IMG/VR virus record: IMGVR_UViG_2541047918_000004
Strand: one strand, 5' to 3'
Origin: a virus
Taxonomy: Duplodnaviria > Heunggongvirae > Uroviricota > Caudoviricetes
Length of the DNA stretch: 47,091 nt
The translations under genes and the position numbers were made by a program. This document shows, piece by piece, positions 4,492-6,590 of the stretch; positions within the stretch are counted from its first letter, which is position 1, and every line of letters begins with the position of its first letter. The notes beneath the pieces were generated by a model. The model made no database searches. It was not told where the DNA came from and worked only from the letters and a program-made list of their open reading frames with translations.

Positions 4492-4617
4492 TCACCTCAT
4501 TATCAGAGCGGCCAGCACACAGAATGTCACCACACCCCCCAGCCATACAAACAGCATGAAGCACATCGCACCCGCTGTGTATTTCCGCTTTCCGCATCTG
4601 ATTTTTTTCTGTTCCAT
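4492..4617 (-). CDS. Small hydrophobic peptide (41 aa), basic N-terminus plus one predicted transmembrane helix; function unknown
   Basis: Manually found ATG..TGA ORF (MEQKKIRCGKRKYTAGAMCFMLFVWLGGVVTFCVLAALIMR), not in the >=60 aa track. A paralogue sits at 23400..23528 in the same position relative to the regulator, sharing the core GAMCFMLFVWLGGV. Conservation across the duplicated cassette is the main support. Confidence 0.4.
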   Translation of the reverse strand: MEQKKIRCGKRKYTAGAMCFMLFVWLGGVVTFCVLAALIMR

Positions 4618-4670
4618 TCTCACTGCCACCGTTCAACTCTCATTACCCGACTCACGAATATTCATTCCGG

Positions 4671-5144
4671 CTACGCACGTCCAACCAGGTGCTTCACACT
4701 CCTGTACTTAAGACCGTTTTTACCAAGCCCCAGATACAGAAAGGTGTTCACCGTCTTCGTGTTTATCCCCATTTCACGGGCAAGATGGCAGGGCTTTGAC
4801 TCCCGGTACACGTATCCAAACATCACCACCATCTCGGACATCGTCAGAGGTCGCGCATACGTATTATGTACCCACTCACCATTCCGGATTTTCCTGTACG
4901 TCTCCAGGCGCCCCGTAACATCTTCCGCATCAATCTGAAGATAACGGCGTCCCTGAAACATGCAGCACATCAGCCTGCCAAGGAGGGCATCACAGATTAT
5001 CACCCATGACTCATCATGTGCCGGTACGCTCTTCCTGTTCTCTGGTGTAAAAAACTCCCTCGCCAGTATTATCCTGTACCCCTCGAGCATCTGCTGCAGG
5101 CCATACTCCAGATAACGGTTGCGGGTCGCCAGAATCACTTTCAT
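4671..5144 (-). CDS. LuxR/GerE-type helix-turn-helix transcriptional regulator (about 157 aa)
   Basis: ORF 4671..5216; probable start at the internal Met MKVILATRNRY, because an intrinsic terminator lies between it and the upstream autotransporter gene. C-terminal segment LTMSEMVVMFGYVYRESKPCHLAREMGINTKTVNTFLY fits the LuxR-type HTH pattern. Paralogue at 23582..24052. Confidence 0.5.
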   Translation of the reverse strand: MKVILATRNRYLEYGLQQMLEGYRIILAREFFTPENRKSVPAHDESWVIICDALLGRLMCCMFQGRRYLQIDAEDVTGRLETYRKIRNGEWVHNTYARPLTMSEMVVMFGYVYRESKPCHLAREMGINTKTVNTFLYLGLGKNGLKYRSVKHLVGRA

Positions 5145-5162
5145 CGCTGTCACCTGTTTCAT

Positions 5163-5200
5163 GCTCACATGAGAAAAAACGGCAGGCAAAACTCCACGCC
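5163..5200 (-). terminator. Rho-independent terminator downstream of the short autotransporter gene
   Basis: Minus-strand hairpin ggcaggc...gcctgcc followed by a T-run; sits between the autotransporter stop (5231) and the regulator start. Confidence 0.4.
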
Positions 5201-5230
5201 TGCCGTCATGCTTCATGTCACTGTCAGCAA

Positions 5231-6229
5231 TTAAAACTCGAAGTTAACGCCCATGTTGTAGGACACATCGCCATCACTCGCTGCAATACCCGCTTTCGCT
5301 GCGGTCTGCTCGTTGAAACGGTAACCAACACCTACAGCAATCGCCTGTTTATCGCTGTAACCACCCAGGGCTGCCGTGGCGTTGAATTTCCCCACACTGT
5401 ACGGCTGGAAAAGACCCGCCAGCGCTGCACTCTGTGCTGCTGCACGCTTCATCTCTTCGTGGTTTTCACGAATCTGGCGCTGCTGGCTGTTCAGGCGTGC
5501 ATTATGCTCCTGCAACTGGCGAGTATTGGACTGAATAGCCTGTGTATTTTTAGTAACCCGGCGGTCAACGCTGTCTGTTCTGCCGGACAGAGCAACGAGA
5601 CCGTCATTAACAGCAATCGTTTTTGTAGCGCCATCAGCGCTGGTCAGGGTTCCGTCGGACTTAACACCAACTGTCGTTCTGGAGTCTGTATATTCACGAG
5701 ACTTTTTCGCTTCAACCACAAGGCGGGTATTCGTATCCTGAGCCAGCTGGTCAACGCGACCAGAAAGCTCACCAACTTGATTTTTCAATGCAGGATTTAC
5801 AACAGTGTTAGACATGTTATAAACTTTATTGTAAATACGCTGTACTTCAGCCTCATCCAGCTCCAGCTTATGGCCTTTACCAACTTTAAGACCTTCAGCC
5901 ATACGGGCAAAGTCCTTCAACACAGGCTCATGGACGGTATATCCTATTTGCCCATCCTTGCTCAGCACCAAAATATTGCCGTCATCACCGAAGTGAAATA
6001 GAACATTATCTTTTCCATTTTGCACATATCGCACAACTCCCCGGTGAGATGACTTACTGTAATAAACTTTGAATTTGCTACCGAATACATCCTGTTTCGC
6101 GTCATCCACTAAAACGCTATACTGCGAGTCTTTCGGATATACTGATGCCTGTGCGAAACCCTCAGCACTCACAACCAGAAGCCCTACCAGAGAAGATGAC
6201 AGAAGTGTCTTTGTGAATTTTTTACTCAT
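5231..6229 (-). CDS. Trimeric autotransporter adhesin, short paralogue of the Eib-like gene (YadA-like anchor, distinct N-terminal passenger)
   Basis: Signal peptide [28 protein letters not shown]; coiled-coil stalk; C-terminal YadA-like anchor ...[46 protein letters not shown]. The 3' half is about 95 percent identical in DNA to 24141..24700. Lacks the head repeats present in the 503-aa paralogue. Confidence 0.8.
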
Positions 6230-6467
6230 TATGGATATCCTGTTAAATTATCTGTATACAAATCAGCCGCAACACCTCACACTCATAAAGAAATATGATT
6301 AATTACGACCTCATTCAGGATATTCCGAAAATAAATTTAAAAATTAATTTAATAACTTTAGGATTTGTCTTACATTATTCTGGGCATACTTACTCAGGCC
6401 CACGCCTACACCGCCGGAACAGACATCAGAAAAAACTTACCCTCAATCAGACTTGCTGTTTCACATC

Positions 6468-6482
6468 TGCTTACACTGTAAT
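6468..6482. promoter_or_regulatory. Conserved 15-bp motif CTGCTTACACTGTAA (contains palindrome CTTACA-c-TGTAAG) upstream of the short autotransporter gene
   Basis: Exact 15-mer occurs three times in the window (6468, 18223, 25889), each in an intergenic region upstream of a minus-strand gene or operon. Confidence 0.35.
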
Positions 6483-6590
6483 TTCTGATCAACATCACAA
6501 CATTATCCGAATTTAACTGTTCAGTTCATCTACAATATTTCCATGCGTGACTTTATATCAGCCCCGCACTTCCGTACGGGGCCATTTCTG

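What the first reader, a model, noticed from the sequence alone, without database searches (positions are those of the whole stretch)
4492..6540. Duplicated adhesin cassette: trimeric autotransporter, LuxR-type regulator and conserved hydrophobic micro-peptide, present twice
Two cassettes (4492..6540 and 23400..25970) share near-identical promoter/5' regions and autotransporter anchor sequences but carry different passenger domains (head repeats only in the 503-aa copy), each followed by a diverged LuxR-type regulator and a 41-43 aa hydrophobic peptide. One copy interrupts the tail-fibre region; the other sits beyond the giant gene beside the SPATE gene. This looks like a modular, shufflable surface-adhesin unit with its own regulator. 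The direct repeats also provide homology for deleting or inverting about 19 kb of prophage DNA.
Basis: seen in the sequence. Interest (0 to 1): 0.6.

Follow-up and report, generated by a model that had tools for sequence, protein, structure and literature searches.

The report
Two Eib adhesin modules, one prophage
An E. coli prophage carries two copies of the known "Eib" surface-adhesin module, and its two never-characterised companion genes prove to be a TosE-like LuxR-type regulator and a tiny, strongly conserved membrane peptide, so this is a well-understood kind of element with two small open questions.

Summary
Two co-oriented (minus-strand) cassettes, 4492-6540 and 23400-25962, each hold four parts: a conserved 5' region, a trimeric autotransporter, an intrinsic terminator followed by a 156/157-aa protein, and a 41-43-aa hydrophobic peptide.

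It is not new as an arrangement. GenBank records of prophages P-EibA/C/D/E (2000) already annotate eib, orf-156 and orf-60, and eaa (a SPATE) in two of them. The SPATE here is 98% EaaC.

It is not a recent duplication. Synonymous divergence is 0.22 in the anchor but 1.35 and 1.8 in the regulator and peptide. Segment by segment, each cassette is a patchwork of different Eib alleles. The 332-aa copy is a head-less allele that replaces EibG at the same position in other strains.

ORF-156 misses Pfam GerE. However, its AlphaFold model (pLDDT 90) is a truncated receiver-like domain plus a NarL/GerE-type HTH. It is also 32% identical over its full length (E 3e-32) to the protein encoded at the tosE position of the tos operon, a LuxR regulator placed just after the adhesin gene tosA and linked to motility suppression.

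The peptide is under purifying selection: its invariant core has 486 synonymous against 18 non-synonymous differences.

Function remains inferred. The direct repeats allow deletion, not inversion.

The parts
6230..6540 (-). Cassette 1: conserved 5' region upstream of the autotransporter gene (promoter/leader not mapped)
   Evidence: 88.5% identical to 25582-25962. 87-89% identical to the upstream regions of P-EibC/D/E, KY208 and KY177. AT-rich. No ops element and no significant RNA fold.
5231..6229 (-). Cassette 1: 332-aa head-less Eib-like trimeric autotransporter (signal peptide, diverged N-terminal domain, stalk, YadA anchor)
   Evidence: Pfam YadA_anchor E 9e-16 and no YadA_head. Stalk and anchor are 87-89% identical to EibE and to the 503-aa copy; the N-terminal domain is 35-42% identical to Eib N-terminal domains. 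The same allele is intact in STEC2018-553 and JNEC-KY177.
5178..5207 (-). Cassette 1: intrinsic terminator-like hairpin plus T-run between the autotransporter gene and ORF-156
   Evidence: 11-bp stem with 7 GC pairs and a T-run. Its position and architecture are conserved in 13 distinct intergenic variants. It is annotated as a stem_loop in the P-Eib records.
4671..5144 (-). Cassette 1: ORF-156 (157 aa), E-type; receiver-like domain plus LuxR/GerE-type HTH; TosE homologue
4492..4617 (-). Cassette 1: 41-aa single-pass membrane peptide (45 aa if the GTG at 4629 is used)
   Evidence: phrog_9340, E 7e-13. The core YTAGAMCFMLFVWLGGV is invariant in 18 homologues. Pooled pN/pS of the core is 0.011.
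274..4299 (-). SPATE autotransporter protease next to cassette 1 (EaaC)
   Evidence: 98% identical to EaaC of P-EibC over 1341 aa. Annotated as an S6 family peptidase in JNEC-KY173.
25653..25962 (-). Cassette 2: conserved 5' region
   Evidence: 100% identical to P-EibD and 97% to P-EibC/E.
24141..25652 (-). Cassette 2: 503-aa Eib-family trimeric autotransporter with YadA head repeats
   Evidence: Pfam YadA_head (5 stretches) and YadA_anchor. 90% identical to EibE, 80% to EibC, 70% to EibD. Mosaic: stalk and anchor are EibE-like (99-100% nt), while the head is at most 81% to any reference.
24091..24107 (-). Cassette 2: terminator-like hairpin plus T-run after the autotransporter gene
23582..24052 (-). 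Cassette 2: ORF-156 (156 aa), C/D-type
   Evidence: 100% nt identity to orf-156C and 99% to orf-156D. 68% aa identity to the cassette 1 copy.
23400..23531 (-). Cassette 2: 43-aa membrane peptide. The annotated ORF-60 form would start at 23582 and overlap the ORF-156 stop as TGATG.
   Evidence: phrog_9340, E 8e-30. AAGGTG lies 4 nt before the ATG at 23531. Only the 41-43-aa part is shared by all variants.
26016..26723 (-). DUF4376 (orf-191-like) gene that precedes the Eib module in most prophages (context)
   Evidence: Annotated as a DUF4376 protein in JNEC-KY173. An orf-191 gene precedes eib in P-EibA/C/D/E.

Best explanation
The window holds two non-identical alleles of the known prophage 'Eib module'. 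It does not hold a fresh duplication.

Each module has four parts:
- a conserved 5' region and signal peptide;
- an exchangeable passenger joined to a conserved stalk and anchor;
- an intrinsic terminator;
- ORF-156 and a 41-43-aa peptide.

Shown here:
- The conserved ends act as recombination handles, so passengers and regulator pairs are re-assorted between prophages. Cassette 2 combines a P-EibD 5' end, an EibE stalk and anchor, and a P-EibC/D regulator. Cassette 1 combines an EibG-type anchor, a P-EibE regulator and a head-less passenger.
- ORF-156 is a small transcription factor with a truncated receiver-like domain and a LuxR/GerE-type HTH. The receiver-like domain lacks the acidic pocket and the fifth strand. 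ORF-156 is homologous along its full length to the protein encoded at the tosE position of the UPEC tos operon.
- The peptide is translated and constrained. It has a basic N-terminus followed by one transmembrane helix.

Inferred:
- ORF-156 and the peptide are made at a low level by read-through of the terminator from the adhesin promoter.
- ORF-156 acts without phosphorylation and mainly in trans, as reported for TosE/TosF. It would adjust motility or other surface structures when the adhesin is expressed.
- The peptide acts in the inner membrane on a conserved host partner.
For: Unit and prior annotation.

Linkage in viral contigs: 15 of 15 anchors are followed by ORF-156, and 10 of 10 with enough flank carry the peptide. 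The TAA-to-ORF-156 spacing is constant in prophage and plasmid contexts.

Mosaicism:
- dS is 0.22 for the anchor, 1.35 for the regulator and 1.79 for the peptide.
- Flanks are the same but the passenger differs in JNEC-KY208 and JNEC-KY177.

Regulator fold and homology:
- AF2 pLDDT is 90.5.
- Foldseek matches full-length RcsB, FixJ and EvgA with probability 0.99.
- The distant member P0108 passes the Pfam GerE and Sigma70_r4_2 cut-offs.
- BLASTP to the tosE-position protein gives 32% identity and E 3e-32.
- That protein lies in the gene order PapB-like, TolC, ABC, HlyD, giant adhesin, then two HTH genes in Nissle 1917.
- TosE/TosF are described as LuxR members associated with suppression of motility (PMC5956150).

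Selection: pooled pN/pS is 0.29 for the regulator, 0.26 for the peptide and 0.011 for the peptide core.

Terminator: the hairpin plus T-run is conserved. Only about 25 nt containing a Shine-Dalgarno sequence lie before the ORF-156 ATG, and no promoter-like site was found there.
Against: - There are no expression data for ORF-156 or the peptide.
- Read-through is inferred only from the lack of room for a promoter. The 11-bp terminator in cassette 1 looks strong.
- The TosE/TosF function is itself poorly defined ('unknown regulatory function', PMC5956150).
- 32% identity does not guarantee the same targets.
- LuxR/GerE regulators next to the autotransporter gene upaB do regulate that gene directly (AutA/AutR, PMC4844996). 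A cis role is therefore plausible.
- The peptide has no identified partner. It is absent from the plasmid-borne TAA-ORF-156 pairs.
- Window ORF-156 itself fails every curated HTH model.
Confidence: 0.55

Rival explanations
1. ORF-156, possibly modulated by the peptide, is the dedicated local regulator (activator or repressor) of the adjacent autotransporter promoter. Each cassette would then be a self-regulating adhesin unit.
For: - There is strict adjacency in every prophage module.
- A conserved 5' region is available as a target.
- There is a precedent: AutA and AutR, LuxR/GerE regulators next to the autotransporter gene upaB, bind and control its promoter (PMC4844996).
- EibG expression is strongly condition-dependent (static against shaken culture) and the regulator responsible is unknown (PMC4352079).
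Against: - The regulator lies downstream, behind a terminator.
- Regulator type and 5' region re-assort independently. Cassette 2 has a P-EibD 5' end with an EibE anchor. E-type and C/D-type regulators, only 68% identical, serve 5' regions that are 87-100% alike.
- Intact homologues occur with no TAA nearby: next to hpaC, upstream of kpsF, and beside an effector gene.
- No conserved palindromic box was found in the 5' region.
Confidence: 0.25
2. ORF-156 and the peptide form a phage-benefit pair unrelated to the adhesin. One possibility is a toxin-antitoxin-like or superinfection-exclusion/defence module, with an HTH protein plus a small membrane-damaging peptide. It would merely hitch-hike in the moron region.
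For: - The peptide resembles small hydrophobic toxins in size and charge pattern.
- In the ORF-60 form, the stop and start codons overlap as TGATG.
- The location is among prophage morons that include a Hok/Gef gene and lom.
Against: - There is no PADLOC hit.
- The regulator's nearest characterised relative is adhesin-linked TosE.
- Linkage to the TAA is tight, with constant spacing across prophage and plasmid contexts.
- The peptide is missing from many ORF-156 loci, which is unexpected for an obligate pair.
Confidence: 0.1
3. The two small ORFs are decaying or non-functional passengers, and only the autotransporters matter.
For: - Most annotations call them hypothetical or miss the peptide altogether.
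- Internally deleted remnants exist in Stx phages, for example 933W L0123.
Against: - Both are intact in all 26 loci that contain all three parts.
- Pooled pN/pS is 0.29 and 0.26, and the peptide core is 0.011 with abundant synonymous change.
Confidence: 0.03

Closest known systems
Eib modules of prophages P-EibA, P-EibC, P-EibD and P-EibE of E. coli ECOR-9 (GenBank AF151091, AF151674-6)
   Same: The gene order is the same: orf-191 (DUF4376), eib, stem-loop, orf-156, orf-60. This is followed either by eaa (SPATE) or by an L0124-like tail gene. Cassette 2 is 97-100% identical to these records in the 5' region, ORF-156 and 3' flank. Cassette 1's ORF-156 and peptide are 98-99% P-EibE. The SPATE is 98% EaaC.
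   Different: Two modules sit in one prophage, which is 933W-like and inserted between rcsD and rcsB. One of them follows the 2788-aa gene instead of orf-191 and carries a head-less 332-aa autotransporter. The head segment of the 503-aa protein is at most 81% identical to any of the reference alleles compared.
TosE (with TosF) of the tosRCBDAEF operon of uropathogenic E. coli
   Same: Homology runs over the full length (32% identity, E 3e-32). The size is the same (157 against 160 aa), as is the receiver-like plus HTH layout. The position is the same, immediately 3' of a large surface-adhesin gene.
   Different: The adhesin there is a type I-secreted repeat protein, not a trimeric autotransporter. 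TosE is followed by a second LuxR protein (TosF), not by a membrane peptide. The tos operon is chromosomal, in a pathogenicity island, not in a prophage. Identification of P0136 as TosE rests on gene order, not on a named record.
AutA and AutR, LuxR/GerE regulators next to the autotransporter gene upaB (APEC)
   Same: They are LuxR/GerE-type regulators without a cognate kinase, encoded beside an autotransporter adhesin. They have wider effects on capsule and acid resistance (PMC4844996).
   Different: No sequence relationship was tested here. They are separate transcription units placed differently relative to the adhesin gene.
NarL/FixJ-family response regulators (RcsB, NarL, EvgA, FixJ)
   Same: The two-domain fold matches: a receiver-like alpha/beta domain plus a four-helix GerE-type DNA-binding domain.
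   Different: The receiver is truncated to four strand-helix units. The acidic pair after strand 1 is replaced by the invariant T7 and N9. There is no strand 5 or conserved lysine. No sequence model reaches threshold.
EibG-like adhesin diversity in LEE-negative STEC (Nat Commun 2026, PMC13534694)
   Same: Strains of that study carry the same elements. JNEC-KY173 is 100% identical over cassette 1 apart from an IS. That paper reports 1-8 EibG-like genes per strain and ongoing duplication and diversification.
   Different: In the passages read, that paper does not discuss the downstream regulator or peptide, nor the head-less allele.

Membership tests
Trimeric autotransporter adhesins (YadA/Eib type) | C-terminal YadA-like membrane anchor | tested here: met
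   PF03895 E 9e-16 for the 332-aa protein and 2e-15 for the 503-aa protein, both above the cut-off.
Trimeric autotransporter adhesins (YadA/Eib type) | YadA-like head (left-handed beta-roll repeats) | tested here: met
   Met for the 503-aa copy only (PF05658, 5 stretches, 48.6 bits). The 332-aa copy has none. That copy is therefore a head-less allele, though still anchored and with a stalk.
Eib (immunoglobulin-binding) subfamily | Non-immune binding of IgG/IgA Fc | not testable with these tools
   Only sequence relatedness could be shown. The 503-aa protein is 90% identical to EibE. The 332-aa protein shares the EibE/EibG-type stalk and anchor at 87-100%.
Eib prophage module (eib, orf-156, orf-60) | Gene order, with a stem-loop between eib and orf-156 | tested here: met
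   Both cassettes match the annotated P-Eib records. The hairpin is conserved.
LuxR/GerE-type HTH regulators | Match to the curated GerE model (PF00196) at gathering score | tested here: not met
   Neither window protein hits it. Only 1 of 21 family members gives a sub-threshold hit. The distant homologue P0108 does pass, at 23.9 against 23.5 bits.
LuxR/GerE-type HTH regulators | Four-helix GerE/NarL-type DNA-binding fold at the C-terminus | tested here: met
LuxR/GerE-type HTH regulators | Sequence-specific DNA binding and transcriptional control | not testable with these tools
   This needs EMSA, ChIP or reporter assays.
Two-component response regulators (receiver domain) | Phospho-acceptor pocket: acidic pair after strand 1, Asp after strand 3, Thr/Ser after strand 4, Lys after strand 5 | tested here: not met
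TosE-like adhesin-linked regulators | Full-length homology to TosE and a position directly 3' of an adhesin gene | tested here: met
   32% identity over 152 aa, E 3e-32. The A1 profile hits P0083 at 2e-33. Position is shown. The name TosE is assigned from operon order plus PMC5956150.
TosE-like adhesin-linked regulators | Suppression of motility | not testable with these tools
   Known only from the literature for TosE/TosF (PMC5956150, citing Engstrom 2014, which could not be read).
Type I toxins / anti-phage defence proteins (considered for the peptide) | Match to a known toxin or defence family | tested here: not met
   No Pfam, NCBIfam or PADLOC hit. The only match is PHROG 9340, of unknown function.
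SPATE (serine protease autotransporters) | Identity to a named member | tested here: met
   98% identical to EaaC over 1341 aa.

The most novel reading that the evidence does not exclude
ORF-156 and the invariant-core membrane peptide together form a small, kinase-independent signalling device that travels with Eib adhesins. The peptide would sense or perturb a conserved inner-membrane component, and the pseudo-receiver regulator would convert this into transcription. That could explain the unexplained static-versus-shaken (shear and oxygen) control of EibG and couple adhesin display to motility.
Probability: 0.12. Interest if true: 0.65.

Novelty: new member of a known kind. Interest (0 to 1): 0.35.

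Why it matters
Eib and EibG-like adhesins drive chain-like adherence, serum resistance and immunoglobulin binding in LEE-negative Shiga-toxin-producing E. coli. Their expression is strongly condition-dependent, and no regulator has been identified in the literature that could be read.

Two results give concrete candidates for that control. First, every prophage Eib module carries a TosE-like regulator. Second, every one also carries a peptide under very strong purifying selection. These findings link Eib modules to the wider pattern of adhesin loci that encode their own cross-talk regulators.

The segment map also documents how passengers, anchors and regulator pairs are re-assorted between prophages. 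That matters for typing eib alleles and for interpreting copy number.

None of this changes the basic picture: the module and its mobility were already known.

Tried and rejected
- Pfam, NCBIfam and PADLOC gave nothing for ORF-156 or the peptide. PHROGs gave only families of unknown function.
- phmmer and hmmsearch against PDB sequences gave only marginal LuxR hits, E 0.06-0.5.
- An exhaustive profile search of 1.84 billion representatives found only 37 proteins. No classical LuxR members were among them, so sequence alone could not place the family.
- A scan of one genome per species found only an Escherichia sp. contig and a 601-bp contig labelled Xanthomonas pisi. The latter is probably contamination.
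- The afdb50 fold library was not available.
- I looked for an RfaH ops element in the 5' region and found none.
- I looked for Rfam families in the window and found only STnc100, far away.
- I looked for a stable leader RNA fold; z was -1.8, not significant.
- I looked for a LuxR-type palindromic box and found only AT-rich palindromes in one cassette.
- The sigma-70 consensus scan found no more sites than shuffled sequence.
- The ECOR-9 Eib paper I tried to fetch (recalled as Sandt and Hill 2000) and Engstrom et al. 2014 are not in the held library. A broad literature search for orf-156/orf-60 returned only noise.
- I considered using the plasmid complementation of an eibG deletion as evidence that ORF-156 is dispensable. 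I rejected it because the host strain keeps its chromosomal ORF-156.
- Inversion of the 19-kb interval is rejected because the repeats are direct.
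Full report
OBSERVATION

Both cassettes are on the minus strand.

Cassette 1 (C1) consists of:
- a 332-aa autotransporter at 5231-6229;
- a hairpin plus T-run at 5207-5178;
- a 157-aa ORF at 4671-5144;
- a 41-aa peptide at 4492-4617 (45 aa if the GTG at 4629 is the start);
- a conserved upstream region reaching to about 6540.

Cassette 2 (C2) consists of:
- a 503-aa autotransporter at 24141-25652;
- a hairpin at 24107-24091;
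- a 156-aa ORF at 23582-24052;
- a 43-aa peptide at 23400-23531 (60 aa in the ORF-60 form);
- an upstream region reaching to about 25962.

Repeat finding and blastn confirm three homologous blocks with an unrelated passenger-coding middle. The blocks are:
- peptide, regulator, stalk and anchor at 82% overall;
- 94% over 300 nt of the anchor;
- the 5' region plus signal peptide at 88.5%.

At the protein level, the regulators are 68% identical. The peptides are 53% identical with an identical core. The autotransporter C-termini are 89% identical. Pfam finds the YadA anchor in both proteins and YadA head repeats only in the 503-aa protein.

WHAT IS ALREADY KNOWN

The arrangement has been in GenBank since 2000. 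The records for prophages P-EibA, P-EibC, P-EibD and P-EibE of E. coli ECOR-9 annotate orf-191, eib, a stem-loop, orf-156 and orf-60. After these comes either the SPATE gene eaaA/eaaC or an L0124-like tail gene. The SPATE in the window is 98% identical to EaaC.

The nearest complete genome is STEC strain JNEC-KY173. It is 100% identical over C1, except that an ISAba1-family element interrupts the 332-aa gene. It carries the same second cassette. That strain comes from a 2026 study of EibG-like adhesins, which reports 1-8 such genes per strain (PMC13534694). In the passages I searched, that paper does not discuss the two downstream genes.

In JNEC-KY173 and STEC2018-553 the prophage lies between rcsD and rcsB.

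NOT A RECENT DUPLICATION BUT A MOSAIC

Between C1 and C2, synonymous divergence is 0.22 in the anchor. It is 1.35 in the regulator and 1.79 in the peptide.

A segment-by-segment comparison shows different nearest relatives for neighbouring pieces. In C2:
- the 5' region is 100% P-EibD;
- the signal peptide and N-terminal domain are 96% EibC/EibE;
- the head is at most 81% identical to any reference;
- the stalk and anchor are 99-100% EibE;
- the intergenic region and ORF-156 are 98-100% P-EibC/D;
- the 3' flank is 100% P-EibD.

In C1:
- the anchor is 100% that of the JNEC-KY208 EibG locus;
- the intergenic region, ORF-156 and peptide are 98-100% P-EibE;
- the passenger matches only the head-less allele of JNEC-KY177.

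JNEC-KY208 and JNEC-KY177 share the same context: gpJ, tail fibre, DUF4376, TAA, ORF-156 and SPATE, at the ompW end of a lambdoid prophage. One carries the 508-aa EibG and the other carries the 331-aa head-less protein.

So 'modular and shufflable' is right. However, the exchanged units are gene segments bounded by conserved stretches. The regulator and peptide travel as a pair, in E-type or A/C/D-type versions.

RECOMBINATION BETWEEN THE TWO COPIES

The longest perfectly identical stretches between the cassettes are 109, 86, 71 and 50 bp. From general knowledge of RecA, this is well above the minimum needed. The copies are direct repeats, so the expected product is deletion of about 18.9 kb. 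That interval holds the giant gene, hok/gef, lom and several tail genes. Inversion is not expected.

THE REGULATOR

Curated sequence models do not recognise ORF-156. An exhaustive profile search of 1.84 billion representative proteins returns only 37 hits. Every one for which a source name was retrieved is from E. coli.

An AlphaFold model built on 21 homologues is confident (pLDDT 90.5, pTM 0.85). It shows four strand-helix units followed by four helices.

- RcsB, DegU, TraR and GerE.

The family alignment keeps an Asp after strand 3 (D52). It replaces the acidic pair after strand 1 with the invariant T7 and N9, and it has no fifth strand. I therefore infer a phosphorylation-independent pseudo-receiver.

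A distant branch of the family (P0083, P0108, P0136; profile E 2e-33) does pass the Pfam GerE and Sigma70_r4_2 cut-offs. P0136 is 32% identical to ORF-156 over 152 residues with a single gap (E 3e-32).

P0136 is encoded directly after a type I-secreted giant repeat adhesin and before a second GerE protein. In Nissle 1917 the full order is: PapB-like regulator, TolC-like, ABC, HlyD-like, adhesin, and then these two HTH genes, next to pic. This is the tosRCBDAEF layout. [quoted passage not shown]

The closest characterised relative is TosE.

THE PEPTIDE

Homologues share an invariant core, Y-T/I-T/A-GAMCFMLFVWLGGV. It is preceded by a basic stretch and followed by a variable hydrophobic tail ending one or two residues later.

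Nine distinct DNA versions show synonymous variation at nearly every degenerate codon of the core. They show only one amino-acid change. Pooled over 136 pairs, the core has 486 synonymous against 18 non-synonymous differences (pN/pS 0.011). The whole 32-codon segment gives 0.26 and ORF-156 gives 0.29. The conservation is therefore at the protein level: the peptide is translated and constrained.

Only the 41-43-aa form is common to all variants. C1-type and L015-type loci cannot encode the 60-aa extension. The internal ATG of C2 has AAGGTG four nucleotides upstream.

No known family matches the peptide.

LINKAGE

In IMG/VR viral contigs:
- 23 of 50 ORF-156 loci have an Eib-type anchor ending about 90 nt upstream;
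- every one of those with enough flank also has the peptide;
- starting from the anchor instead, 15 of 15 loci with at least 200 nt downstream have ORF-156, and 10 of 10 with at least 800 nt have the peptide.

The TAA-to-ORF-156 junction also occurs beside a tail-spike gene near prfC, with the peptide. It occurs in an island or plasmid context next to a large TAA, without the peptide.

Intact ORF-156 homologues also occur alone:
- next to hpaC;
- between a T6SS gene and kpsF;
- beside an NleA-like effector gene in degraded prophages.

An internally deleted remnant is gene L0123 of phage 933W, found in over 150 Stx-phage records. It sits at the position that C2 occupies here.

About 190 of 5426 complete E. 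coli genomes carry ORF-156-like DNA, with up to seven places per genome.

HOW IT PROBABLY WORKS

The intergenic region is conserved in architecture across 13 variants. It runs: stop codon, about 25 nt, a GC-rich hairpin with T-run, about 25 nt containing a Shine-Dalgarno sequence, then the ATG. No promoter-like site lies there.

The simplest reading is that ORF-156 and the peptide are expressed at a low level by terminator read-through. This would tie them to adhesin transcription. By analogy with TosE/TosF, and given the solitary homologues, I favour a trans-acting role in re-programming motility or other surface structures.

A cis role on the eib promoter, as for AutA/AutR at upaB (PMC4844996), is the main rival. 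It is not excluded. EibG expression responds strongly to static versus shaken growth, and the regulator responsible is unknown (PMC4352079).

The peptide core stays invariant while ORF-156 diverges to 60% identity. This suggests that the peptide's partner is a conserved host membrane component rather than ORF-156. That point is inference only.

VERDICT

This is a real feature and it was correctly described. It is essentially a new combination of known Eib modules.

The modest added value is threefold:
- identification of ORF-156 as a TosE-family pseudo-receiver/LuxR regulator;
- evidence that the micro-peptide is a genuine, strongly constrained gene;
- the segment map of recombination.

Noticed in passing
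window 1-274 and beyond the window; L002, L081: In JNEC-KY173 and STEC2018-553 this prophage lies between rcsD and rcsB, which separates the two genes of the Rcs phosphorelay by tens of kilobases. An integrase sits next to rcsB in STEC2018-553.
   Followed up: partly
L069:4001-4290 (VT2-Sakai); 933W gene L0123: Stx phages of the 933W type (over 150 records) carry an internally deleted remnant of ORF-156 (residues about 21-78 and 119-154) between L0122 and L0124. This is the position that cassette 2 occupies here. There is no autotransporter and no peptide.
   Followed up: partly
L018-L020 (4001-4516); L007-L011 (5001-5495); L052 (4001-4543): Intact but solitary ORF-156 homologues (50-60% identity) occur in three places. 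One lies between a T6SS vasL-like gene and kpsF of the group 2 capsule cluster. One lies next to hpaC. One lies beside an NleA-like effector gene in degraded lambdoid prophages.
   Followed up: partly
L002:21502-22592 (corresponds to about window 5750): In JNEC-KY173 the 332-aa autotransporter gene is interrupted by an ISAba1-family IS4-like element. The window has the intact gene.
   Followed up: yes
window 43390-43606 (-): Rfam match to the sRNA STnc100 (150.6 bits, E 1e-33) in the early region of the prophage.
   Followed up: no
window 46985-47084: A perfect tandem array of the 7-bp unit GCTGGTC (about 12-14 copies) at the very end of the window.
   Followed up: no
window 26614-28548 (-): The tail-fibre gene has long collagen-like Gly-X-Y repeats, which appear as a 12-copy direct-repeat family at 26900-27747.
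   Followed up: no
window 18220-18360 (-) and 18593-19330 (-): A Hok/Gef-family toxin gene and an Ail/Lom outer-membrane protein gene lie between the two cassettes. They would be lost in a deletion between the repeats.
   Followed up: no
L085, L087, L090, L091 (IMG/VR contigs): Four predicted provirus contigs end exactly 3 nt after the ORF-156 stop codon. Presumably boundary calling stopped at the last called gene, so the peptide gene is cut off in those records.
   Followed up: no
L006 (NZ_JPLE01000137.1, 601 bp): A 601-bp contig in a Xanthomonas pisi assembly encodes an ORF-156 fragment and the tail of the peptide. It is most likely E. coli contamination of that assembly.
   Followed up: no
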